The notes below the pieces were generated by a model that ran no database searches, had not been told where the DNA came from, and saw only the letters and a list, made by a program, of their open reading frames with translations. DNA of 39,176 nucleotides. It comes from Anaerolineae bacterium (GTDB lineage Bacteria; Chloroflexota; Anaerolineae; DUEN01). Each line of letters begins with the position of its first letter. Positions within the stretch are counted from its first letter, which is position 1. Positions 16,354 through 28,834 of the stretch are shown piece after piece. The DNA lies in assembly GCA_034432955.1 (NCBI GenBank), contig DAOUBB010000023.1, forward strand, positions 1 to 39,176, given 5' to 3'. The translations under genes were made by a program, and so were the position numbers.

Positions 16354-16587
16354 ACCTACCTCCGTCATCGGGATGGGGATGTCGCCATTGTACCCCAGGA
16401 AGCTGGTTTGTCAAGGCTCTTCCGTTCGGCAGCGAGACCGGGACTTGTGAAGCCGCTACGAGCCCATGTGGGCTCAGGGTGCCCTCGGGGGAGCAGGAGT
16501 ACTGTCACGCAGGGCTGCTTTCCAGACCGCAAGTAGAACGCATGTTCTAAACATCGCCCATTCTACCACTGGAGAATCGGTTTGTCA

Positions 16588-17451
16588 ATGGCTAATAAGG
16601 ACTATGTAGCCCTCGAATCCACCGTCATCTCCCACGGCCTACCGTGGCCACAGAACCTGGAGGTGGCGCGCCGACTCGAACGGACGGTGCGCGAGGCCGG
16701 CGCCGAGCCGAGAACCATCGGCATTATCGCCGGCCAGGTGCGCATCGGCCTGACCGACGCGGAGCTGGAACGCCTGGCGCGTGCCCGCGAGGTGCGTAAG
16801 GTCAGCCGCCGCGATCTGCCGCTGGTTGCCGCGCGGAAACAGGACGGGGCAACCACCGTCGCCGCCACCATGTACCTGGCGGCCCGCGCCGGCATTCCAG
16901 TGTTCGCCACCGGGGGCATCGGCGGCGTTCACCGCGGCCAGCCCTTCGACGTGTCCGCGGACCTGGAGGAGCTGGCACAGACGCCGGTGTGCGTCGTGTG
17001 CGCCGGCGCCAAGGCTATCCTCGATCTGCCTCTGACGCTGGAGGCCCTGGAAACGCGGGGCGTGCCGGTGATCGGCTTTCAGACGGACGAGTTTCCGGCT
17101 TTTTACTCGCGCTCATCCGGGCTGCCAGTGGATCAGCGGGTGGACACGCCGGGCGAGGTCGCCGCCATCTTTCGTGCGCAGCGCGAGCTCGGCCTGCCGG
17201 GCGGGATGCTCGTCGCCGTGCCGGTGCCGACGGAAGCTGAATTGCCCAGGGAGCGCGTGGAGCCGGCCATCGAGCAGGCGCTGGGCGAGGCAGAAGTCCG
17301 TGGTGTGCGCGGCAAGGCTCTGACGCCGTTCCTGCTGGCGCGCGTGGCCGCGCTGACGGGGGGGGACGCGCTGCGCGCCAACATGGCCTTACTGGAGAAC
17401 AACGCCAGGGTTGCCGCGCAGATCGCGGTGGCTCTGGGACAATCGTGGTGA
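16588..17451 (+). CDS. psuG: Pseudouridine-5'-phosphate glycosidase (IndA/PsuG family).
   Basis: The whole protein aligns to PsuG hallmarks (ESTVISHGLPWPQN, GGIGGVHRG, CAGAKAILD). No adjacent pseudouridine kinase. Confidence 0.85.
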   Translation: MANKDYVALESTVISHGLPWPQNLEVARRLERTVREAGAEPRTIGIIAGQVRIGLTDAELERLARAREVRKVSRRDLPLVAARKQDGATTVAATMYLAARAGIPVFATGGIGGVHRGQPFDVSADLEELAQTPVCVVCAGAKAILDLPLTLEALETRGVPVIGFQTDEFPAFYSRSSGLPVDQRVDTPGEVAAIFRAQRELGLPGGMLVAVPVPTEAELPRERVEPAIEQALGEAEVRGVRGKALTPFLLARVAALTGGDALRANMALLENNARVAAQIAVALGQSW

Positions 17452-17513: not shown

Positions 17514-20015
<2,502 letters not shown>

Positions 20016-20554: not shown

Positions 20555-21634
20555 TCAGTCCAGGACGAGGTTCCCAAAGGTCGTCGGCACCCCTGGACGA
20601 AAGTTGGGAGATCCGGTCAGCATGGTGTCCTGCCCGGCAGACCCCGGTTGATCATTGTCCAGCAGTTGGACGGAAAACCCGAACGCGCTCCCGACCGTCG
20701 GCTGGCGATGGAGCACCGACCAGGGGATCGCCGCCTCCAGCGAGTATCCGTCGCTGCGCTGGCGCGCGGCGACGATGATCGCCTGGTCCCAATCCGCGCG
20801 CCGCTGTGGCCTCCACACGACCGCCTCCGGTGGCAGTGCGGCGAAATCGCCGGGGGAAAGGCCGATCTGGTAATCGTCCTCGTTGGCTACTGCTGTGTCA
20901 AAGTCCTCGGCCAGGGCGGCGTCTAGCCAGACGATCAGGCCATCTCCCCACTCCATGCGGTCGCCCCGTTGCGTCTGGACGTGGACATCGTCCAACACGC
21001 GCGCCGCCAGGTACAGATAACGCTCATCCCATTGGGCATACACGGTGCCGGCGAGATCGGCCATCCCTCCATAGGCCTCCGCTCCACTCAGGATATAGCT
21101 CATATCCTGCCCGGCTATGCCGTCCCACTCGCCCAGTTCGCCGTCGAGGCGCAGCGGTATCGTCAGATGGCGCGCGTACAAGTCCGCCCCGTTGCCCTCG
21201 CGATAGGGGCCGGCGTAGGGTGCCGGCGTAGGGGTCGTCGTGTCTGTGGGAGTGGGGCTGGGTGTCGAGGTCATGGTGGGCGATGGCGTGTCCGTCGGAG
21301 TGCTGGTCGGCACAGCAGTGTCGGTGGGCGTTGCCGTAGGGCTTTCCGGCGTCGGCGTAGGCAGCACGGCGACCACGATCAGGGTAGGAGTTGGCGAGTC
21401 CGTCGGCACGGGTGACGGCCGTCTGGCAGCCGGGGTGAAGGCGAGCCGGGTGAGCGCCCGCGTGGGTGAAAGGCCGCTCTGTCGCGTCAGAGGCCCGGAG
21501 GGAGCCTGCACGGAGGGGACGCGCCGCTGCAAAATGCCTAGCGTTGAGCTCGCGATCAGCCCCGCAACGACGCATAACGCCAGCGCCAGCACAAAGCCGA
21601 ACAGCAAAGGGATTCGGCTGCCGTCACCGCCCAT
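20555..21634 (-). CDS. Membrane-anchored protein with a PT-rich linker and a C-terminal CBM9-like/DOMON-like carbohydrate-binding domain.
   Basis: N-terminal TM segment, a ~90-aa Pro/Thr/Ser linker, and CBM9-like motifs (DGELGEWDG, WDERYLYLAARVLDD, YSLEAAIPW, FGFSVQLLDND). Starts 26 nt downstream of the eRF1-like gene. Confidence 0.6.
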   Translation of the reverse strand: MGGDGSRIPLLFGFVLALALCVVAGLIASSTLGILQRRVPSVQAPSGPLTRQSGLSPTRALTRLAFTPAARRPSPVPTDSPTPTLIVVAVLPTPTPESPTATPTDTAVPTSTPTDTPSPTMTSTPSPTPTDTTTPTPAPYAGPYREGNGADLYARHLTIPLRLDGELGEWDGIAGQDMSYILSGAEAYGGMADLAGTVYAQWDERYLYLAARVLDDVHVQTQRGDRMEWGDGLIVWLDAALAEDFDTAVANEDDYQIGLSPGDFAALPPEAVVWRPQRRADWDQAIIVAARQRSDGYSLEAAIPWSVLHRQPTVGSAFGFSVQLLDNDQPGSAGQDTMLTGSPNFRPGVPTTFGNLVLD

Positions 21635-21660
21635 CCGCTCGTTGTCTCCTTGGGCCCTCC

Positions 21661-22740
21661 TCAGTAGCGCAGGAGGGCCCCGATGTGCCCTGCTCGCTGC
21701 AAGGCTTCACTCCCGCCCACGATCGTGACATCCAGCCCCTGCTGGATCGCGTGATGGATCAGATGGTCCACGGCATCGGGCAGGTAGGCCATATCACCAC
21801 CACAGAAGGAGCATCGCTCGACTGGCTCGACGGTCATATAGCCGCACCCCCGGCAGAGATAGGCCGGAGCACGGTACCCCTGTTCGACGACAAGGCGGCG
21901 CAACCGGCCTTCATGAAGCGCCCCGAGCGTGTCGGCCAATCCGATCACCGCAGCCCTTCCCTTGGCCGCAGTGGTGATCATATCGTTCACCAGCGCGGAT
22001 TCGCTCTGAGCTAAATAGGTCTGCACCACCTCCAGCGCCCGCTCGTTCACCTCAGCCGGCGAAGCGTCTTTATCCACGCTGATGCGGCCGATCACCCGTT
22101 CACGCAGCGCTGACGGGAGCAGCTCTTCAAACAGGGCCACATTGGTCTCCGTTCCGCCCAGGATCAGGCGATCGCATTTGTGTTGCCGGCAGAAGGCCTC
22201 GGTCAGCTCGGCTGCCTCGCGCAGGTTGCGCTGAGCCGTCACGTCCTCGTGCCGCTGGTAACGCTGTGCCGCCCAACCGCCGGCCCGATGGCGCTTCACA
22301 TCCTCGCCCGAGATCTCGGTGGCCTCTTGCAATGCCCCCATGTAGAAGACGAAAAGACGGGCTCCCCCACGGTTGACGAGCGCGACCGCGTATCGCTCCA
22401 TGATGTCGGTCAACGGCTTGACGTAGGGCCGATCGCCCACAAAAGCCAGATCCTCGCGGGGGAGCAGGAGAGGGAACGCTCGCCAGAAGCCCGCGGCCTC
22501 ACAACTGAAGCAGGCTACGGCCCTTCCCTGCCAGTTATATTCCAGGTCAATATAGCGTTCCACTCGTGCCAGATCCCGCGAATCCGCCTGAGCGGATACG
22601 CTTTCCAGCAGCCGGCGCAAAGCCAGCTTGTACTTCTCGCGCGTTCGTCGGTGCGGATCTACATTCAGATAGAGACTTAAGACGGAAGCCCCATCTACCC
22701 GAAAGTTGACCAATTCCTGAATCGCCCGTTCGTCAATCAT
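21661..22740 (-). CDS. Full-length eRF1/aRF1/Pelota-superfamily protein (bacterial eRF1-like, baeRF-type) with the catalytic loop reading GGW instead of GGQ, and a C-terminal CxxC...CxxC zinc ribbon.
   Basis: KRHRAGGWAAQRYQRH aligns to eRF1 KKHGRGGQSALRFARL. The C-terminal ...AGHIGALLRY aligns to eRF1 ...FGGIGGILRY. Start at MIDER (ATG 22740) with a GAGGAGG RBS; the longer ORF to 23058 is read-through across the intergenic repeat. Confidence 0.65.
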   Translation of the reverse strand: MIDERAIQELVNFRVDGASVLSLYLNVDPHRRTREKYKLALRRLLESVSAQADSRDLARVERYIDLEYNWQGRAVACFSCEAAGFWRAFPLLLPREDLAFVGDRPYVKPLTDIMERYAVALVNRGGARLFVFYMGALQEATEISGEDVKRHRAGGWAAQRYQRHEDVTAQRNLREAAELTEAFCRQHKCDRLILGGTETNVALFEELLPSALRERVIGRISVDKDASPAEVNERALEVVQTYLAQSESALVNDMITTAAKGRAAVIGLADTLGALHEGRLRRLVVEQGYRAPAYLCRGCGYMTVEPVERCSFCGGDMAYLPDAVDHLIHHAIQQGLDVTIVGGSEALQRAGHIGALLRY

Positions 22741-22935
22741 GCTACCTCCTCGTTCAAACGGCGCCGAAATGAGTGCCAGGATGCGGGGACCCGGCGCTTG
22801 AGGCTTACAGTTCGGCAGTGTAGGCGGCAGACACACGACCAGGGCAACAGGATCAAAATCGGCTGATGGGCAGTGCGGCCAGGCTCCGCTACCGTTACCT
22901 GGCGACTGGAAGTCACGGCAACGCCTGCCAAGCCT

Positions 22936-23036
22936 GCCTCCGCAGGCTAAATCCAGTTGCCGTAGGGCGACTTCGCTGACGTTGCCCGCAGTTTCTAACG
23001 GCTGGGCCTCCAGCAACACCCAAGGGGGAGACCACC
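22936..23036 (+). repeat. Copy 2 of the ~101-bp direct repeat, intergenic between rluA (stop 23089) and the eRF1-like gene (start 22740). It is antisense to both genes.
   Basis: 99/101 identical to 1-101. A GCCTGC-ctcc-GCAGGC hairpin at 22932-22947 overlaps its 5' end. Confidence 0.9.
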
Positions 23037-23088
23037 GATCCATGAGACACCCTGCCAATAGGCGTATACGACGCCCGATCCAAGCTTG

Positions 23089-23754
23089 CTACCCTCTGCG
23101 CGCGGCCTCCACGACGACCTGAAAGGATTCGGGAACGGGCGCCTCAACGGTTACCCTCCTGCCGGGTGGAAGCGTAAACTCGATCCGTTGGGCGTGCAAC
23201 ATCAAACGCGGATGCTGACGCTGAAGCGCCCGGTTGCCATAGCGCAGATCACCTACGATAGGATGCCCAATGCTGTAAAAGTGTGCCCGAATCTGGTGTC
23301 GCCGTCCGGTCCGCGGGTGTACCTCCACAAGCGTGTGCCCAGCGAACCGTTCGAGCACGCGGAATTCGGTGATGCTGGGCTTGCCTCGCTGAAAATCCAC
23401 ACCGATGCGCCCCGATCCAAACTCACGCAGGGGCCTGTCAATGACCCCGGCGCTGTCCGTGATGACGCCGTGCGTGAGCGCCACGTATGTCTTCTGGACG
23501 CTTCGGTTGCTGAACTGCTCGGACAGAAGGCGATGGGCCATTGCGTTTCTGGCAAACAGGATTACACCGCTGGCCTCTTTGTCAAGGCGATGGACCACAT
23601 AGAGCTTTTCCGGGAACATGGACGAGAGCAGCGAAAGCAGACAATCCTGCGCTCCCGGCTCTGGGATCGAGGGAAGGCCTTCTGGTTTGTGAACCACAAT
23701 CACATGTTCATCCGCAAAGAGGACCGAGATCACCGACCGCTTCCCTGCTCCCAT
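23089..23754 (-). CDS. rluA: RluA-family pseudouridine synthase.
   Basis: Catalytic HRLD motif (VVHRLDKEASG) and RluA core blocks. Its start overlaps the lhr stop. Confidence 0.8.
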   Translation of the reverse strand: MGAGKRSVISVLFADEHVIVVHKPEGLPSIPEPGAQDCLLSLLSSMFPEKLYVVHRLDKEASGVILFARNAMAHRLLSEQFSNRSVQKTYVALTHGVITDSAGVIDRPLREFGSGRIGVDFQRGKPSITEFRVLERFAGHTLVEVHPRTGRRHQIRAHFYSIGHPIVGDLRYGNRALQRQHPRLMLHAQRIEFTLPPGRRVTVEAPVPESFQVVVEAARRG

Positions 23755-26700
23755 TATACCACATCACGGGTCATGGATCCTGGCGTCATGGTCTTCCCCT
23801 CCCACGTCATCCCTGGCGGGTCGCGATAGAAGCCGAGCGATTCGAGGAGCGCCTGCCCACGGCTTCCCAGCACCGGCTCGCCGTTCCACCGTTCCACATG
23901 CACGCGCCGGGCGATCGTCCCGATCTCGCCGCGCGCCGCCAGGTGTGCCAGCAATGCCTCCAGACAGCGCCGGATGACGCGCTCCGTCAGCGCCATGTCC
24001 GCCCGCAGCGAGCGCCCTTCGCCCTGGGAGAGCAGAACCGGCTGGCCCCGCCATAGCACCACATGCGTGGATGGCAGCCGGGCGAACGCCCCCACGCCCG
24101 ACCGCAGCTCTGCCGCGTCCTCGCCCTCCGGCACGTCCAGCCGCGCCGACCCGAAGAGGTTGGCCGGGTCGCACGCGCTCATCACGACAGGGACCGCCGC
24201 TTCGTCGCCGGCGGATCGCAGTTGCTCCACGGCCTCGGGCAGCGCGAACTGCGCACCGGACAGCCCGGCCACGAAGTAGCCGCGCCGCACCTCACCGCGC
24301 ATTTCCATCAATTGCCAGCGCGCGTATAGCGCTTCCCATCTCCAGCTCGTGCCTTCAGTCTGCACCAGATCGCGCGTGACCACGCCCCAACGCAGCAACA
24401 ACTGCCGTGCCTGCCGTTCCGCCCGCTCCTCCGCCGAGATAGGCTTCCCCATCACCCGGATCCGGTGCACCGGCGACCAACGCCCGGCCCACCTCGGTGG
24501 GGGAGGCTTCGGCTCATAGCCCAGCCGGCGGGCAACCCGGCGCCTGGCATCCCGGTAGACGACGGGGCTGGGGCGAGAGAGCACCGGACGGCGTTGCGCG
24601 CGCCAGGCCGCCAGCTCAGCCTCCAGCGCGCTCAACGGCCGGCGCGGGGCGCTCTCCTCCGGCTCGCGCGCCAGGATAGTCCGCAGCGCCTCCATGCTGT
24701 CATTGGTGACCAGGCCGGCCATCGTCAGGGCGAGCAGCGCCTCCTCGACCTGAGCACCCGTCAGCCCCAGGGATTCCTCCAGATCGGCTGTGAAACAGGC
24801 CCCCTCCGCTCGCAGGAAAGCCAGAACCCGGCGAGCGAGCTCATCCAAGCCGGCCGGATCGCCCTCTGACTCCGGCAGGAAGGCGCTTCCCTCGCCGCGG
24901 AAGAGAAAGCGCACGCGCGCCCGTCTGGGATCGGCTTCACCCGTGACGACCCAGATCAGCTCGCCGCTCTGGCACAGCGCGTCCAGCTCGCCCGGGTCAT
25001 ACCGGGTCAGCCGTAGCGGCAACACATCTAGCTCCCAAGCCATGCCCATGATCGGCAAGGCTCGCAGTTGCTGCAGGACGCGCGCCAGCCCCTCGGGGCC
25101 GAAAAGCCGATGGCTTGGGTGCAGGTGTTGCCAGCGGGTCAGGAAGTCGGCGAAGGCGTACAGGGAGACCGGCTGAACCTCCCGGCGTAAGAGGGTGAGG
25201 GTGCGGCGGTGGATACCAACCAGGTTGTCCGCATCGAGGAACTGGATTTCGGATGGCCGACCGCTGGCCAGCTCGCCGACCCGCTGACTCGCCGACTCGC
25301 CGAGGGTAGCCGGAGCAGCAAAATGCCCCTGCACGATCTCTTTGCGGGCGAGCATGTCGGCCAGCGTCGCGTCCAGCCAGGCGGAGGGAAAAGCGTAACG
25401 GGCCAGGATGGCTTCTCGGGTGAGCGGGCCGCTGTGGCGCAAGAAATCGCTCAGGATGCGCCGACGGGCTTGCTCGGCGGGCCAGCGCTCCGTCAGCAGG
25501 GCTTCGGGCGCCGGTGCCGGTGGCATCTCCGGCAGGCCGAAAGCGTCCCGGTAGCGCGGGTACGCCTCGCTGGCGATCCAGCGCCGGGCTCGCCCGGCGC
25601 CGGCAGGGATGTCAACCTCCATCACACGGCCCTGGGCAGCCAGATCTTCCAGCCACTGCTCCCATCCTGGCCGCGACCGCTCCGCGATCTCCGCTTCGCT
25701 CAGATCTCCCATCTCCAGTAGCAATAAGGCCAGCTCATCGGCCGAGCGCGCCCGGAACGCCGGGTCGGTGCGTTGGGCGCGAGCGGTCACCTCGGCGATG
25801 GCCTCCGGCCGCAGCAGCCGCGCCAACTCGGGGTTGCCCATCAGATCGGCCAGCAGCTCACGGCTGACCGCTAACCGCTGCAGCTCTCGCTCGGCCTTGG
25901 GCGCGTCCCACTCGTACAGGTAGATGTTCATGAAGTCGAAGAGCAGGCTGGCCGCCACGGGCGAAGGGACGGCCGTCTCGGCGGTGATCAGCCGGATGCG
26001 CCCGGCCTGGATCTCGCCCAGCACCTCCTCCAGCCCGGCCAGATCCATGACGTCGCTCAGGCAGTCACGATACGTCTCGGCGACGATGGGGAAGTCGTGA
26101 AACTGGCGCACCGCGGCGAGCAAGTCTCTGGCCTTCAGCCGTTGCAGCCAGAACGGCGTGCGTTTCCCGCCCGATGTGGGGAGGAGCAAAGCCCGCGCCG
26201 CGTTCTGACGGAACTGCGCGCCGAACACGGCCGACTCGGGCAGCTCTCGCAGGATGCGCTCGCGGGCCTCAACGGGCGTCATCTCCCGGATCACGTCCAG
26301 CGGCGGCGGCTGATCGGCGCCGGGAAAGCGAAGGAGGATGCCGTCGTCGCTGACCTGCACCTCGACCTCTATGCCGGTTCGCTCCCGCAGCGCCGACGCC
26401 AGCGCCAGGCCCCACGGCCCATGCACCCGCCCACCGAATGGCGAATGGATGACGATGCGCGGCTCGCCGATGGCGTCCTCGAACGACTCGACGATGATCG
26501 TGCAGTCCGACGAGATGGCGCCCATCACGTCGAGCTGATGCCGCACATACGCGATCAGGTTGCGGGCCGAGTTGCGATCGAGGGCACATTCCCGTTCAAG
26601 CCAGGCGGCCACATCGGCATAGGCATCCAGCCAGTCACCGTCCTCAGCCCAGCCATCTGCCGTCGTCGGTCGTCGGTCGCCCGTGGTCAGCGGCTCGGAC

Positions 26701-28706
26701 GATGGACGAGGGACGAGGGACGACGCCGTAGCGATCCGCTCGCTGAGCTCGCGGCGGAACGCTCCCACCGCTCGCCCCAGGGCATAGGGCCGCCAGGGGA
26801 AATCGCCGCGCCAGAACGGCATGCGCGGCACCTCGCCCGCGGCATCGGCTACAATCACGCGGTCGTCGGTGATCTCCAGCACGCGCCAGGTGTGTGAGCC
26901 GAGCAGGAACACGTCCCCTGGGCGCGTCTCGAACACGAACTCCTCGTCCAGCTCGCCCAGCCGGGTGCGCCCATCGGGCAGATAGACGCCGTAGGTGCCG
27001 CGATCGGGGATCGTGCCGCCGTTGCGCAGGGCGAGCTGTCGGCTGCCGGGCAGCGCGCTCACCGTGTTGTGCACGCGATCCCAGGCCAGCCGCGGCCGCA
27101 GCTCGCGGTGTACGGTGGACGGATATCGCCCGGCGAGCATGTCCAGCGTCGCCTGGAACGCCTGCCACGAGAGGTCCCGGTACGGGTATGCCTGCCGCAC
27201 CAGCGCGTACAGGTCGTCCACCCGCCACGTCTCTACGGCCACCATCGCCACGATCTGCTGGGCCAGCACGTCGAGCGGGTTGCGGGGCGTGTAGACGGGC
27301 TCCACGTCGCCGCGCAACATGCCCCGGGCGACGGCGGCGGCCTCCATCAGGTCTTCGCGGTGAAGCGGGATGATGCGCCCAACAGACGTTTGCCCGACCA
27401 GGTGGCCGGATCGGCCCACGCGTTGCAGGCCCTGAGACACGCTCTTGGGGCTGCCCAGTTGCACCACCAGATCAACGGAGCCGATGTCAATGCCCAACTC
27501 CAGCGAGGAGGTGCCCACCAGCGCCGGCAGCTCGCCGCGCTTGAGCTGCTCTTCCATCTGCCGGCGGGCCTCGCGAGACATGGAGCCATGGTGGGCGCGG
27601 ATGGGGCCGCTGGCGCCCACGGTGAAGATGCCGCGGCCGGGGGCGATCTCGCCACCTTTGGGATTGGGCAGGAGCATGGCGCTGGTGCCGGGAGGCACGC
27701 GGCCCTCGGCTTCGGCCGCCAGTTGCTCATTAAGGCGATCGGCAGTGCGCTCCGCCTGGCGGCGGCTGTTGCAGAAGATGAGCGTGGTGCGGTGCTGGCG
27801 AATGAGCTGAACCAGATGGGGGATGACGGACGGCCAGATTGAGTCGCCAGGGAGCCGGCTGAAATCCTCCACCACGGTTTGCACCTGCAGATCGAGCCCC
27901 TTTTGGTGGATGGCGTTCACGATGGTGACCGGGCGAGGCATTGGTGAGCCGTCGGACCTTACCCCATCCCCCATCCCCCTCCGTGCAGGGGGCGAGGTGA
28001 GGGTCTGCCCCCCCAGAAAGGCCGCCGCCTCCTCCAGCGGGCGGATCGTGGCGGAGAGGCCGATCCGCTGCACTGGAGCCCCAGCCAGCCGCTCCAGTCG
28101 CTCGAGGGAGAGGGCCAGATGCGCGCCGCGCTTGCTGCCCACCAGCGTGTGGATCTCGTCCACGATCACCGTGCGCACGTCGCGGAACATCGCCCTCGCC
28201 ATCGGGCTGGTGAGGAGCAGATAGAGCGACTCGGGGGTAGTGATCAGGATGTGAGGCGGGCGACGCACCATAGCGGCGCGAGCCGAAGAGGGTGTGTCGC
28301 CGGTGCGCACCGCTACGTTCAATGGAGGGAGTGGCTCGCCCAGCTCATGGGCGGCGTGGCGAATGCCGGCCAGCGGCACGCGCAGGTTACGCTCGATATC
28401 GTTGTTCAGGGCTTTGAGCGGGGAAACATAGACCAGGCGTAACGCGCTCTGCCGCCTCTCTCCTTGTTGCCTTGTTGCCTCGTTGCCCCGTTTCCCCGCC
28501 GCCTTGCTGACTTCCCGAAAGATCGAGTCAATGCCCCACAGGAAGGCGGCCAACGTCTTGCCAGAGCCGGTGGGGGAGAGGATCAGGGTGTGCTCTCCAC
28601 GCTGGATCGGCGGCCAGCCGGCTATCTGCGGCGGCGTCGGCTTGCCGAAGGTGGAGATAAACCATTGTCGCGTAGCTGGCAGAAACAGCTCAAGCGGGTC
28701 CTCCAT
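23754..28706 (-). CDS. lhr: Lhr-type large DExH-box helicase (Lhr-core plus long C-terminal domain). Start chosen at MEDPLEL (28706, GGAGAGG RBS); the ORF-track start is 28739.
   Basis: SPTGSGKT Walker A, DEIH box (VDEIHTLVGSKRG) and an Lhr-like N-terminus (WFISTFGKPTPPQIAGWPPI). ~1650 aa. Confidence 0.8.
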   Translation of the reverse strand: MEDPLELFLPATRQWFISTFGKPTPPQIAGWPPIQRGEHTLILSPTGSGKTLAAFLWGIDSIFREVSKAAGKRGNEATRQQGERRQSALRLVYVSPLKALNNDIERNLRVPLAGIRHAAHELGEPLPPLNVAVRTGDTPSSARAAMVRRPPHILITTPESLYLLLTSPMARAMFRDVRTVIVDEIHTLVGSKRGAHLALSLERLERLAGAPVQRIGLSATIRPLEEAAAFLGGQTLTSPPARRGMGDGVRSDGSPMPRPVTIVNAIHQKGLDLQVQTVVEDFSRLPGDSIWPSVIPHLVQLIRQHRTTLIFCNSRRQAERTADRLNEQLAAEAEGRVPPGTSAMLLPNPKGGEIAPGRGIFTVGASGPIRAHHGSMSREARRQMEEQLKRGELPALVGTSSLELGIDIGSVDLVVQLGSPKSVSQGLQRVGRSGHLVGQTSVGRIIPLHREDLMEAAAVARGMLRGDVEPVYTPRNPLDVLAQQIVAMVAVETWRVDDLYALVRQAYPYRDLSWQAFQATLDMLAGRYPSTVHRELRPRLAWDRVHNTVSALPGSRQLALRNGGTIPDRGTYGVYLPDGRTRLGELDEEFVFETRPGDVFLLGSHTWRVLEITDDRVIVADAAGEVPRMPFWRGDFPWRPYALGRAVGAFRRELSERIATASSLVPRPSSEPLTTGDRRPTTADGWAEDGDWLDAYADVAAWLERECALDRNSARNLIAYVRHQLDVMGAISSDCTIIVESFEDAIGEPRIVIHSPFGGRVHGPWGLALASALRERTGIEVEVQVSDDGILLRFPGADQPPPLDVIREMTPVEARERILRELPESAVFGAQFRQNAARALLLPTSGGKRTPFWLQRLKARDLLAAVRQFHDFPIVAETYRDCLSDVMDLAGLEEVLGEIQAGRIRLITAETAVPSPVAASLLFDFMNIYLYEWDAPKAERELQRLAVSRELLADLMGNPELARLLRPEAIAEVTARAQRTDPAFRARSADELALLLLEMGDLSEAEIAERSRPGWEQWLEDLAAQGRVMEVDIPAGAGRARRWIASEAYPRYRDAFGLPEMPPAPAPEALLTERWPAEQARRRILSDFLRHSGPLTREAILARYAFPSAWLDATLADMLARKEIVQGHFAAPATLGESASQRVGELASGRPSEIQFLDADNLVGIHRRTLTLLRREVQPVSLYAFADFLTRWQHLHPSHRLFGPEGLARVLQQLRALPIMGMAWELDVLPLRLTRYDPGELDALCQSGELIWVVTGEADPRRARVRFLFRGEGSAFLPESEGDPAGLDELARRVLAFLRAEGACFTADLEESLGLTGAQVEEALLALTMAGLVTNDSMEALRTILAREPEESAPRRPLSALEAELAAWRAQRRPVLSRPSPVVYRDARRRVARRLGYEPKPPPPRWAGRWSPVHRIRVMGKPISAEERAERQARQLLLRWGVVTRDLVQTEGTSWRWEALYARWQLMEMRGEVRRGYFVAGLSGAQFALPEAVEQLRSAGDEAAVPVVMSACDPANLFGSARLDVPEGEDAAELRSGVGAFARLPSTHVVLWRGQPVLLSQGEGRSLRADMALTERVIRRCLEALLAHLAARGEIGTIARRVHVERWNGEPVLGSRGQALLESLGFYRDPPGMTWEGKTMTPGSMTRDVV

Positions 28707-28834
28707 GGTTGCCTCTCCGCCCTCTACCGGTAAGGGCATACGGATACACCGGACAGGGATCTGACGCGTGAGAGATCATAGCACAAATGTGCTGACTCGA
28801 CAAGTGCGGCAGGCCGGGATTCACAGCACCGCCT

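What the first reader, a model, noticed from the sequence alone, without database searches (positions are those of the whole stretch)
21661..22740. Bacterial full-length eRF1/aRF1 homolog with GGQ replaced by GGW and a C-terminal zinc ribbon
The central block KRHRAGGWAAQRYQRH aligns residue-for-residue with the eRF1 peptidyl-tRNA hydrolysis loop KKHGRGGQSALRFARL. The C-terminus AGHIGALLRY matches the eRF1/Pelota domain-3 ending FGGIGGILRY. Together these support a three-domain eRF1-like protein in a bacterium, of the baeRF type described by Burroughs and Aravind.

The universally conserved Gln, which positions the hydrolytic water and is the HemK/PrmC methylation site, is a Trp here. That suggests a hydrolysis-deficient, Pelota/Dom34-like ribosome-binding or rescue role rather than canonical termination. 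The N-domain is short and lacks NIKS/YxCxxxF stop-codon recognition motifs. A CxxC...CxxC insert sits in domain 3.

Genomic context: it lies in a co-directional run with lhr-rluA upstream and a PNPOx-like gene and clpC downstream, and 26 nt upstream of a membrane-anchored CBM9-like protein.
Basis: partly seen in the sequence, partly recalled or inferred. Interest (0 to 1): 0.68.

Follow-up and report, generated by a model that had tools for sequence, protein, structure and literature searches.

The report
Balon-type aRF1-like factor with GGW
This gene in an uncultured Chloroflexota bacterium encodes a full-length relative of the archaeal/eukaryotic release factor, in the same protein family as the known ribosome hibernation factor Balon; its catalytic Gln is replaced by a conserved Trp and it usually sits in heat-shock operons, so it is a real but largely already-catalogued kind of protein.

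Summary
Window 21661-22740 (-) encodes a 359-aa three-domain aeRF1-like protein. The block KRHRAGGWAAQRYQRH aligns without gaps on the aRF1/eRF1 GGQ loop, the protein ends in LRY, and it carries an invariant CxxC...CxxC zinc ribbon.

GGW is not an error. GG is invariant and W is present in 68% of the 120 nearest homologs. No homolog has Q at that position, apart from one distant representative.

The protein belongs to Pfam baeRF_family10. The cryo-EM-validated mycobacterial Balon (Msmeg1130) scores in the same family, and it is also the best sequence and structure match in the PDB.

The best explanation is a Balon-type A-site-binding ribosome hibernation or parking factor. This one keeps the ancestral GG loop geometry and the zinc ribbon.

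The lhr-rluA neighbourhood is specific to this window (0 of 80 related species). The conserved neighbourhood across Chloroflexota is dnaJ / htrA / hspR - this gene - clpC-type AAA+, which is a heat-shock and proteostasis cluster.

W in place of Q does not by itself prove loss of hydrolysis. An active release or rescue role therefore remains a minority rival. NCBI already names a protein at least 90% identical 'Vms1/Ankzf1 family peptidyl-tRNA hydrolase', and that name is not supported here.

Verdict: new member of a known kind, with moderate-to-low interest.

The parts
21661..22740 (-). Gene for the 359-aa baeRF family 10 (Balon-type, aeRF1-like) protein; the stop codon is at 21661-21663
   Evidence: Searches give the ORF, the ATG and the RBS. 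Pfam PF18854 scores 129.3 bits, E=1.7e-37. Homologs of the same length start at the same Met.
22745..22750 (-). Shine-Dalgarno-like AGGAGG, 4 nt upstream of the ATG
   Evidence: Read directly from the sequence.
22429..22740 (-). N-terminal domain (residues 1-104). It is alpha/beta, about 25 residues shorter than the eRF1 N domain, and lacks NIKS and YxCxxxF. Conserved motifs are SLYLNVDP and EY-WQG
   Evidence: AF2 secondary structure. Conservation. Motif counts are 0 of 267. eRF1 'YLCDNKF' aligns to FVGDRPY at residues 100-106.
22027..22428 (-). Middle domain (residues 105-238), with an RNase-H-like fold; it is the equivalent of eRF1 domain 2
   Evidence: Pfam baeRF_family10 hit over residues 105-238. 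Aligns to aRF1/eRF1 domain 2.
22249..22296 (-). Equivalent of the GGQ minidomain, KRHRAGGWAAQRYQRH (residues 149-164). GGW is at 22273-22281
   Evidence: Searches give the translation. Gapless alignment to the GGQ loop. Conservation in 120 homologs: G154/G155 100%, W156 68%, K149 96%, R150 95%, R160 90%, R163 93%.
21664..21993 (-). C-terminal domain (residues 250-359), Pelota/eRF1-domain-3-like, ending in the invariant LRY
   Evidence: Aligns to the aRF1 4af1 C domain through to the terminal LRY. L357, R358 and Y359 are invariant.
21802..21855 (-). Four-cysteine zinc ribbon (C296, C299, C310, C313) inserted in the C domain
   Evidence: One search gives the translation. All four Cys are invariant in 120 homologs and present in 89% of 151 diverse representatives. 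They align on the aRF1 zinc ribbon and on the Cys-less segment of Msmeg1130 Balon.
17514..20015 (-). ClpC/ClpB-type Hsp100 AAA+ ATPase. This is the only neighbour in the window whose linkage to the gene is conserved across the family
   Evidence: Pfam Clp_N/AAA/AAA_lid_9/AAA_2/ClpB_D2-small. NCBIfam ClpB scores 1139.6, below the cut-off of 1232.1, and matches in two stretches. An ortholog lies downstream on the same strand in 44 of 80 species loci.

Best explanation
The gene encodes a Balon-type member of the bacterial aeRF1 clade (Pfam baeRF family 10). It is a tRNA-shaped three-domain protein.

Inferred mechanism:
- It enters the ribosomal A site under stress and holds ribosomes in an inactive, protected state rather than terminating translation.
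- The N domain has no stop-codon-reading motifs, so binding should be independent of the codon.
- The middle domain keeps the complete aRF1 'GGQ minidomain' (K-R-H-x-x-G-G, then R-[YF]-x-R on the following helix), but with Trp in place of the catalytic Gln. I infer that the loop still reaches the peptidyl-transferase centre. There the indole ring would stack on an rRNA or tRNA base, or fill the hydrophobic A-site cleft, instead of positioning water.
- The C domain keeps the ancestral zinc ribbon where Msmeg1130 Balon has a cysteine-free segment of similar length. I take this segment to be Balon's EF-Tu-binding hairpin, so an EF-Tu contact is plausible.
- Expression is probably tied to heat or proteotoxic stress, because in most relatives the gene sits between dnaJ/htrA/hspR and a clpC-type gene.

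Shown here: family membership, fold, motif conservation and gene neighbourhood. Inferred: ribosome binding, the role of Trp, the EF-Tu contact and heat induction.
For: Family and fold:
- Pfam baeRF_family10 scores 129 bits.
- The experimentally validated Balon Msmeg1130 scores 124.6 bits in the same Pfam family.
- Msmeg1130 is the best PDB hit by profile (E=3.4e-23, full length) and by structure (8v9l_z E=5e-25, TM 0.69). P. urativorans Balon and Rv2629 Balon follow at about 1e-19.
- NCBIfam gives full-length sub-threshold hits to all three 'ribosome hibernation factor' families.
- The AF2 model is confident: pLDDT 90, pTM 0.81.

Motifs:
- There is no Q at the GGQ position in any of the 120 nearest homologs.
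- Q158/Q159 are not conserved in this clade.
- Loop length varies: 27 of 120 carry an 8-residue Gly/Arg-rich insert, and lengths range from 21 to 51 in diverse representatives. Burroughs and Aravind associate such variation with non-catalytic families (PMC6514570).
- The rRNA-binding Arg residues after the loop are conserved (R160 90%, R163 93%).
- NIKS and YxCxxxF are absent.

Context:
- About 70 of 80 species loci carry at least one of DnaJ (39), HtrA (32) or HspR-like MerR (15) upstream, or a ClpC-type ATPase downstream (44), all on the same strand.
- The MerR protein tested (from L005) passes the NCBIfam HspR cut-off (118.8 against 105).
- The Balon paper reports that Balon genes typically lie in stress operons that include DnaK/DnaJ/Hsp20 (PMC10901736).
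- A fourth Balon homolog has since been seen on hibernating Synechocystis ribosomes (bioRxiv 10.64898/2026.07.03.736309).
Against: - No experiment exists for this GGW/zinc-ribbon subgroup.
- The protein misses the NCBIfam equivalog cut-offs for all three Balon families by a wide margin: 86 against 480, 66 against 320, and 54.5 against 330.
- Unlike the validated Balons, it retains the invariant GG and the whole aRF1-like loop context. That could mean the loop enters the PTC as in a true release factor.
- None of the roughly ten Pfam-annotated loci shows the HPF/RaiA neighbour that is frequent for other Balons.
- No HAIR or CIRCE operator was found in the window, and no HAIR in the 80 loci. Heat-shock regulation is therefore inferred only from gene neighbours.
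- In the window itself the dnaJ/htrA/hspR genes are absent.
- Balon's HP motif, lasso loop and bL27 trap could not be mapped.
Confidence: 0.55

Rival explanations
1. Catalytically active alternative release or rescue factor. The GG loop enters the PTC of stalled ribosomes, or of obstructed 50S subunits. It then releases the nascent chain, either by peptidyl-tRNA hydrolysis through backbone-amide catalysis or by Vms1-like cleavage of the tRNA 3' end. The released product is handed to the co-encoded ClpC-type unfoldase, DnaJ and HtrA. This would be a bacterial counterpart of Vms1-Cdc48.
For: - GG is invariant and the flanking aRF1 loop residues are conserved.
- In bacterial RFs catalysis is attributed to the Gln backbone amide, not the side chain (PMC6742477).
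- Burroughs and Aravind singled out family 10 as possibly active.
- 35% of diverse family representatives carry GGWSQ, which matches the GGxSQ motif of acVLRF1.
- The Pfam acVLRF1 model is also hit above its cut-off (46.4 bits).
- NCBI names a protein at least 90% identical 'Vms1/Ankzf1 family peptidyl-tRNA hydrolase'.
- The conserved neighbours are protein quality-control genes, including an AAA+ unfoldase.
- Two loci also carry RtcA and an MBL-fold gene.
Against: - The query has GGWAAQ, not GGxSQ.
- In the 120 nearest homologs position 158 is Q in only 5 and position 159 is Q in only 26. No candidate catalytic Gln is therefore under selection in this clade.
- Loop length is not constrained.
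- The structural match to Vms1 is marginal (6r84_R E=1.6e-3, 142 columns), against 5e-25 for Balon.
- The protein keeps the Pelota-like C domain, which the archaeal VLRF1 family lacks, and the N domain, which acVLRF1 lacks.
- The closest validated relative, in the same Pfam family, is non-catalytic (PMC10901736).
Confidence: 0.2
2. Pelota/Dom34-like non-catalytic rescue factor. It binds the empty A site of stalled ribosomes and promotes subunit splitting and recycling together with a GTPase or ATPase partner, rather than long-term hibernation.
For: - It has the same superfamily fold. Pelota structures are hit at E=1e-9 to 1e-7 and by profile at 1.8e-3.
- The catalytic Gln and the stop-codon motifs are absent.
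- The stress-operon context is compatible with rescue of heat-stalled ribosomes.
Against: - Matches to aRF1, eRF1 and Balon are 10 to 15 orders of magnitude better than matches to Pelota.
- The N domain is predicted alpha/beta like aRF1 and Balon, not the Sm-like beta-barrel of Dom34 (PMC6514570).
- No ABCE1-like or Hbs1-like partner is encoded nearby.
Confidence: 0.15
3. A decaying or non-functional relic of a transferred aRF1 gene, or a sequencing or assembly artefact at the GGQ codon.
For: None was found beyond the unusual W and a possible assembly breakpoint about 300 nt upstream.
Against: - The reading frame is intact and has an RBS.
- There are hundreds of full-length homologs with 22 invariant columns.
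- W is conserved, and TGG is two substitutions from a Gln codon.
- An independent assembly is 100% identical across the gene.
Confidence: 0.02

Closest known systems
Balon, the ribosome hibernation factor: Msmeg1130 and Rv2629 of mycobacteria, and AOC03_06830 of Psychrobacter urativorans (Helena-Bueno et al. 2024, PMC10901736)
   Same: - Three-domain aeRF1-like fold, and the best PDB match by both sequence profile and structure.
- Msmeg1130 falls in the same Pfam family, baeRF_family10.
- No NIKS and no catalytic Gln.
- The insertion in the C domain is at the same site.
- Stress-operon context.
   Different: - Only about 20% identity, and it fails all three NCBIfam Balon equivalog cut-offs.
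- It keeps an invariant GG plus a conserved Trp and the aRF1-like flanks, where Msmeg1130 has a degenerate loop.
- It keeps an intact 4-Cys zinc ribbon where Balon has a Cys-less hairpin.
- Its neighbours are dnaJ/htrA/hspR/clpC rather than raiA/hpf.
Archaeal aRF1 and eukaryotic eRF1 (class-1 release factor; 4af1, 1dt9)
   Same: - The domain order is the same.
- The GGQ minidomain aligns residue for residue: K-K/R-H-x-x-G-G-[Q/W]-S/A-A-x-R-F/Y-x-R.
- The zinc ribbon is as in archaeal aRF1, and the terminal LRY is shared.
   Different: - Gln is replaced by Trp.
- NIKS and YxCxxxF are absent.
- The N domain is about 25 residues shorter.
- TIGR03676 scores 44.8 against a cut-off of 234.7.
- The host is a bacterium, which would be expected to terminate with RF1/RF2 (established knowledge; not checked in this genome).
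Vms1/ANKZF1 and the bacterial acVLRF1 family (this is the NCBI name given to this protein's near-identical relative)
   Same: - Same aeRF1 superfamily middle domain; the Pfam acVLRF1 model is hit at 46 bits.
- More distant family-10 members carry GGWSQ, which fits the GGxSQ motif.
- The adjacency to an AAA+ ATPase is reminiscent of Vms1-Cdc48.
   Different: - This protein has GGWAAQ, and the Gln is not conserved in its clade.
- It retains both flanking domains.
- The Foldseek match to Vms1 is marginal.
- The NCBIfam acVLRF1 model scores 29.6 against a cut-off of 125.
Pelota/Dom34
   Same: A non-catalytic aeRF1-superfamily A-site factor. The middle and C domains are alignable.
   Different: Pelota has a different N domain (a Sm-like barrel). 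The sequence and structure scores are much weaker, and no Hbs1- or ABCE1-type partner is present.

Membership tests
aeRF1 superfamily (three-domain release-factor-like proteins) | N domain, RNase-H-fold middle domain and Pelota-like C domain, in that order | tested here: met
   The AF2 model has pLDDT 90. Full-length Foldseek alignments to Balon, aRF1 and eRF1 range from E=5e-25 to 1e-13.
   TIGR03676 aRF1_eRF1 gives E=7e-12 over residues 108-359. The family profile against aRF1 4af1 gives E=1.4e-16 over positions 103-362. The family member P0215 hits Pfam eRF1_2 (31.3 bits) above its cut-off and eRF1_3 (21.5 bits) below its 25.8 cut-off. The query itself shows no Pfam eRF1_1/2/3 hit at E<=10.
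Classical aRF1/eRF1 (translation termination factor) | GGQ motif with the catalytic Gln | tested here: not met
   The motif is GGW. W or another non-Q residue occupies this position in all 120 nearest homologs.
Classical aRF1/eRF1 (translation termination factor) | NIKS and YxCxxxF stop-codon recognition motifs | tested here: not met
   Both are found in 0 of 267 family sequences. The YxCxxxF position reads FVGDRPY.
Classical aRF1/eRF1 (translation termination factor) | NCBIfam TIGR03676 equivalog cut-off | tested here: not met
   44.8 bits against a cut-off of 234.7.
Pfam PF18854 baeRF_family10 (Burroughs and Aravind 2019) | Score above the Pfam gathering threshold, and the best-scoring family among the baeRF models | tested here: met
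   129.3 bits against 27.1. The next best is family 2 at 53.6 bits.
Balon ribosome hibernation factors | Bacterial full-length (>=300 aa) aeRF1 homolog, the operational definition used in PMC10901736 | tested here: met
   359 aa with three domains. Msmeg1130 is the best PDB hit and belongs to the same Pfam family.
Balon ribosome hibernation factors | NCBIfam equivalog cut-offs (MSMEG_1130, Rv2629 and AOC03_06830 families) | tested here: not met
   86.1 against 480, 65.9 against 320, and 54.5 against 330. It is a separate subfamily.
Balon ribosome hibernation factors | Absence of the NIKS and GGQ motifs | tested here: met
   Unlike Msmeg1130, however, the GG pair and the aRF1-like flanks are retained.
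Balon ribosome hibernation factors | Beta-hairpin insertion in the C domain that contacts EF-Tu | tested here: inconclusive
   An insertion of the same length sits at the same site, but here it is an intact 4-Cys zinc ribbon. EF-Tu binding was not tested.
Balon ribosome hibernation factors | HP motif (decoding centre), lasso loop around A2602, and bL27 trap | not testable with these tools
   The paper text gives no residue numbers. The query has P29-H30 in a conserved DPxRR loop, but the equivalence is unknown.
Balon ribosome hibernation factors | Binds the ribosomal A site and inhibits translation under stress | not testable with these tools
   Requires biochemistry or cryo-EM.
Balon ribosome hibernation factors | Located in stress-response operons | tested here: met
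   Across 80 species loci: DnaJ 39, HtrA 32, HspR-like 15, ClpC-type 44. The L005 HspR-like protein scores above the HspR cut-off. In the window only the Clp gene remains.
Vms1/ANKZF1 - VLRF1 clade (including acVLRF1) | GxuQ or GGxSQ catalytic motif with a conserved Gln | tested here: not met
   The query has GGWAAQ. In the 120 nearest homologs Q is at position 158 in 5 and at position 159 in 26. GGWSQ occurs only in more distant members.
Vms1/ANKZF1 - VLRF1 clade (including acVLRF1) | NCBIfam acVLRF1 cut-off, and the characteristic architecture (acVLRF1 lacks the N stop-codon domain) | tested here: not met
   29.6 bits against a cut-off of 125. Both flanking domains are present. The Foldseek hit to Vms1 is E=1.6e-3.
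Pelota/Dom34 | Sm-like beta-barrel N domain with loop A | tested here: not met
   The N domain is predicted alpha/beta with 3 helices and 4 strands. Pelota hits are much weaker than aRF1 and Balon hits.

The most novel reading that the evidence does not exclude
The GGW factor and the co-encoded ClpC-type AAA+ unfoldase, together with DnaJ and HtrA and under HspR control, form a heat-shock-induced bacterial ribosome-associated quality-control module analogous to eukaryotic Vms1-Cdc48. In this reading the aRF1-like factor inserts its GG-Trp loop into the PTC of heat-stalled ribosomes. It then releases or exposes the nascent chain, by backbone-amide hydrolysis or by tRNA 3'-end cleavage, for extraction and degradation.
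Probability: 0.1. Interest if true: 0.8.

Novelty: new member of a known kind. Interest (0 to 1): 0.35.

Why it matters
If the Balon-type reading is right, this subgroup is an intermediate form between archaeal aRF1 and the validated Balons. It keeps the GG loop, its basic flanks and the zinc ribbon, and has changed only the catalytic Gln, to Trp.

That makes it a clean natural test of two questions: what the Gln side chain contributes, and how a release factor was converted into a ribosome-parking factor.

The conserved linkage to dnaJ/htrA/hspR/clpC in Chloroflexota ties ribosome silencing to the heat-shock proteostasis response. It also gives a testable regulatory prediction.

Practically, the current database name 'Vms1/Ankzf1 family peptidyl-tRNA hydrolase' asserts an activity that the sequence evidence does not support.

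Tried and rejected
1. phmmer of the single protein against PDB sequences found nothing. Only the family profile found Balon, aRF1 and eRF1.
2. Rfam over the whole window gave no hits at gathering thresholds. The permissive scan of the 5' region gave one sub-threshold CRISPR-DR28 hit at 22926-22949, judged to be chance. The 312-nt leader folds no better than shuffles (z=-0.09). An RNA thermometer or riboswitch was therefore rejected.
3. A search for the HspR operator (HAIR) and for CIRCE in the window found none. HAIR with up to 2 mismatches had 0 hits in the 80 loci, against 2 in the reversed control. A de novo search for shared inverted repeats upstream of dnaJ found nothing shared. Only a TTGACAAGG -35-like word and coding k-mers recurred.
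4. PADLOC gave no defence-system model for the protein, so an anti-phage reading has no support.
5. A functional link to lhr-rluA was rejected. The pair is found in 0 of 80 related loci, relatives at least 90% identical have LysM-Band_7 upstream, and nucleotide homology to relatives stops at the start codon.
6. The sigma-70 promoter scan found no promoter upstream of the gene in the window.
7. Supplementary files of the two key papers were not held or had no relevant text.
8. A literature search for 'GGW motif' with eRF1 returned no papers. A search for VLRF1 in bacteria found no experimental work.
Full report
**1. What is in the sequence**

The minus strand carries an ORF that ends at 21661. 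The mechanical ORF begins at a TTG at 23058 (465 aa). The ATG at 22740 is preceded by AGGAGG at 22745-22750 and gives a 359-aa product. All close homologs are 358-372 aa and start at this Met.

The quoted peptides are present:
- KRHRAGGWAAQRYQRH at 22249-22296
- GGW at 22273-22281
- CRGCGYMTVEPVERCSFC at 21802-21855
- the C-terminus AGHIGALLRY

The neighbours are also as described. All of the following lie on the minus strand:
- Lhr (1661 aa)
- an RluA-family pseudouridine synthase
- a 348-nt gap
- this gene
- 26 nt further on, a membrane-anchored CBM9-like protein
- a PNPOx/F420-type protein
- an 833-aa Clp/Hsp100 ATPase

**2. Homology and fold**

Sequence searches place the protein in the bacterial aeRF1 clade.
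- Pfam assigns baeRF_family10 (129.3 bits, E=1.7e-37, residues 105-238). Families 2 and 3 and acVLRF1 give weaker hits.
- NCBIfam gives full-length but sub-threshold hits to the three 'ribosome hibernation factor' families (MSMEG_1130, Rv2629, AOC03_06830). It also hits aRF1_eRF1 (E=7e-12, residues 108-359).

A 70-sequence family profile (A1) was searched against PDB sequences. It finds:
- Balon Msmeg1130 first (E=3.4e-23, full length)
- then Halobacterium aRF1 4af1 (1.4e-16)
- eRF1 (about 5e-14)
- Balon Rv2629 (2.6e-11)
- Pelota, only marginally (1.8e-3)

The printed alignments place GGW exactly on GGQ without gaps. They also align K149/R150/H151 and R160/Y161/R163 on the eRF1 K-K-H and R-F-x-R positions. 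The four Cys fall on the aRF1 zinc ribbon, and LRY falls on LRY.

The AlphaFold2 model is confident (pLDDT 90, pTM 0.81). Its best Foldseek matches are:
- ribosome-bound Msmeg1130 Balon (E=5e-25, TM 0.69)
- aRF1 (3e-20)
- P. urativorans Balon (about 2e-19)
- Rv2629 (9e-19)
- eRF1 (about 1e-18 and weaker)
- Pelota at 1e-9
- Vms1 at only 1.6e-3

I rebuilt the Msmeg1130 sequence from the alignment and scanned it against Pfam. It is itself a baeRF_family10 member (124.6 bits). The query therefore shares its Pfam family with a cryo-EM-validated hibernation factor.

**3. Is GGW real and conserved?**

Yes. Trp is TGG, two substitutions away from either Gln codon. An independent assembly is 100% identical across the gene.

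In the 120 nearest homologs (47-100% identity, all Chloroflexota MAGs):
- G154 and G155 are invariant.
- W156 occurs in 82. Most of the rest belong to a subgroup with an 8-residue Gly/Arg-rich insertion, or have R, S or P.
- None has Q at this position.

In 138 full-length representatives of 50%-identity clusters, reaching down to about 27% identity:
- W156 is 62%, G154 82%, G155 86% and R163 86%.
- 72 combine GG, an aromatic residue and an intact zinc ribbon.
- Only one (P0166) has a genuine GGQ in the loop.

The four Cys are invariant in the near set and present in 89% of the 151 diverse representatives checked by motif. NIKS and YxCxxxF are absent from all 267 sequences. The eRF1 YLCDNKF segment aligns to FVGDRPY.

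**4. Which glutamine?**

Burroughs and Aravind (PMC6514570) wrote that family 10 keeps 'a well-conserved glutamine' and might be active. In the diverse representatives the commonest motif is GGWSQ (Q158 35%). This matches the GGxSQ motif they describe for acVLRF1.

In the query's own clade that Gln is not maintained. Among the 120 nearest homologs position 158 is A in 82 and Q in 5, and position 159 is A in 57 and Q in 26. The query reads GGWAAQ.

Loop length also varies, with K149-N172 segment lengths of 24, 30 and 32 residues in the near set and 21 to 51 in the diverse set. The same authors associate that pattern with non-catalytic families.

This argues against a conserved catalytic Gln in this clade. 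There is a caveat. In bacterial RFs the Gln backbone amide is credited with catalysis (PMC6742477). From my own knowledge of Shaw and Green 2007, most side-chain substitutions reduce release activity rather than abolish it. Trp alone therefore does not prove inactivity.

**5. Genomic context**

*The lhr-rluA link is not conserved.*
- In relatives at 88% and 72% identity, and in relatives at least 90% identical, the downstream genes are collinear with the window: CBM9-like, PNPOx, Clp, convergent psuG, a Band_7-like gene and a GT4 glycosyltransferase. The upstream genes are LysM and Band_7.
- Nucleotide homology to these relatives stops at the start codon.
- A second assembly of the same population is identical to window 20661-23036 and then diverges. 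At that point it carries TTGACG-N17-TACAAT. This matches a promoter-like element conserved about 200-290 nt upstream of the gene in relatives.
- The window therefore has a rearrangement, or a chimeric join, at 23036/23037.

*The conserved neighbourhood is a proteostasis cluster.* I examined 80 loci from different GTDB species. 488 candidate stretches in that collection encode a relative. On the same strand:
- a ClpC/ClpB-type ATPase lies downstream in 44
- DnaJ lies upstream in 39
- an HtrA-type protease lies upstream in 32
- a MerR-type regulator lies upstream in 15

About 70 of the 80 loci have at least one of these. Lhr and RluA appear in none.

The MerR-type protein tested (from L005) passes the NCBIfam HspR cut-off (118.8 against 105). 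The conserved unit is therefore dnaJ-(htrA)-(hspR)-gene-clp, a heat-shock and proteostasis cluster. In the window only the clp linkage survives, with two genes inserted between.

I found no HAIR or CIRCE operator. None of the Pfam-annotated loci has an HPF/RaiA neighbour.

**6. Mechanism**

The Balon paper (PMC10901736) reports the following:
- Full-length bacterial aeRF1 homologs from Psychrobacter and mycobacteria occupy the A site of vacant or translating ribosomes, together with EF-Tu.
- They lack NIKS and GGQ.
- They keep the PTC inert.
- Their genes usually lie in stress operons that include DnaK, DnaJ and Hsp20.

A Synechocystis homolog has since been seen on hibernating ribosomes.

By family, fold and context, the most likely function here is the same: a stress-linked A-site-binding silencing and protection factor (confidence about 0.55).

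The difference is that the aRF1-type loop is fully preserved apart from Q to W, and the ancestral zinc ribbon is intact. In Msmeg1130 Balon the same site is a cysteine-free segment. I take that segment to be Balon's EF-Tu-binding hairpin, which PMC6514570 would regard as a degenerate zinc ribbon.

I infer that the GG loop still docks at the PTC, and that the indole stacks on a base or fills the A-site cleft. This inference rests on established PTC structure and has not been tested.

The rivals are:
- an active release or Vms1-like factor feeding ClpC, DnaJ and HtrA (about 0.2)
- a Pelota-like splitting factor (about 0.15)
- an artefact or relic (about 0.02)

**7. Comparison with the known, and novelty**

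The family was catalogued in 2019 and its function was established for relatives in 2024. By the Balon paper's operational definition (any bacterial aeRF1 homolog of at least 300 aa), this protein is a 'Balon homologue'.

It fails the narrower NCBIfam equivalogs. It also fails every defining feature of classical aRF1/eRF1, of VLRF1 and of Pelota.

NCBI already annotates a protein at least 90% identical as 'Vms1/Ankzf1 family peptidyl-tRNA hydrolase'. The motif and structure data do not support that name.

I could not find two points in the searchable literature:
- the conservation of Trp at the Gln position
- the dnaJ/htrA/hspR/clpC linkage in Chloroflexota

These are refinements rather than a new kind of system.

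Verdict: new member of a known kind. Interest is 0.35.

Noticed in passing
window 23036/23037 (between rluA, which ends at 23089, and the gene start at 22740): A second assembly (L091, GCA_964426405.1 contig CAYRQQ010000027.1) is 100% identical to window 20661-23036 and then diverges. Its extra 116 nt carry TTGACG-N17-TACAAT, where the window has the 3' end of rluA. Relatives at least 90% identical have LysM-Band_7 upstream. This is either a real rearrangement that removed the gene's promoter or a chimeric assembly join.
   Followed up: partly
L001, L003, L011, L012, L014 (alignment A2), about 200-290 nt upstream of the homologous genes: A conserved promoter-like TTGACA...TAAAAT element implies a long 5' leader in relatives. 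The corresponding 312-nt leader in the window (22725-23036) is poorly conserved and folds no better than shuffles (z=-0.09).
   Followed up: partly
P0166 (467 aa, metagenomic); also the N-terminally extended proteins P0140, P0145, P0181, P0185 and P0206: P0166 fuses an N-terminal zf-HC2 (anti-sigma-factor zinc finger) to a baeRF family 10 body. It is the only representative with a true GGQ in the loop. Several other representatives have N-terminal extensions of 90-110 residues of unknown nature.
   Followed up: partly
27 of the 120 nearest homologs (for example P0092, P0054, P0056): This subgroup replaces GGW with an 8-residue longer Gly/Arg-rich loop (KHGRGSAAGRRGGVTGRTGR). In three of the 80 species loci (L038, L051, L052) and in L009, the locus of one subgroup member (P0056), a second, more divergent Clp ATPase follows the gene.
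   Followed up: no
L005 9627-12355; L078 upstream region: RtcA (RNA 3'-phosphate cyclase) and an MBL-fold (RNase Z/ELAC-like?) gene lie next to the baeRF10-clp cluster in 2 of 80 loci. This is reminiscent of tRNA 3'-end repair after Vms1 cleavage, but it is too rare to weigh.
   Followed up: no
window 23754-28739 (-): The 1661-aa Lhr helicase hits the PADLOC DpdJ model strongly (742 bits). This is most likely plain Lhr homology. No other dpd genes were looked for.
   Followed up: no
window 16582-17451 (+), and 16 of 80 related loci: psuG (pseudouridine-5'-phosphate glycosidase, Pfam Indigoidine_A) is conserved convergent to the clp gene, so the clp-psuG junction is ancestral synteny.
   Followed up: partly
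window 20555-21634 (-): The CBM9-like protein has an N-terminal membrane anchor and a long Pro/Thr-rich linker. It and the PNPOx-like gene sit between the factor and clp only in the closest relatives (>=72% identity).
   Followed up: partly
P0289 (at least 90% identical to the window protein; MCS7221449.1, MDW8099911.1): The public annotation 'Vms1/Ankzf1 family peptidyl-tRNA hydrolase' asserts an enzymatic activity. That is at odds with the absence of a conserved Gln, and with Balon being the closest characterised relative.
   Followed up: yes
window 22926-22949 (+): A single sub-threshold Rfam CRISPR-DR28 match (27.1 bits against a gathering score of 35) with no repeat array. Judged to be a chance hit.
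   Followed up: yes
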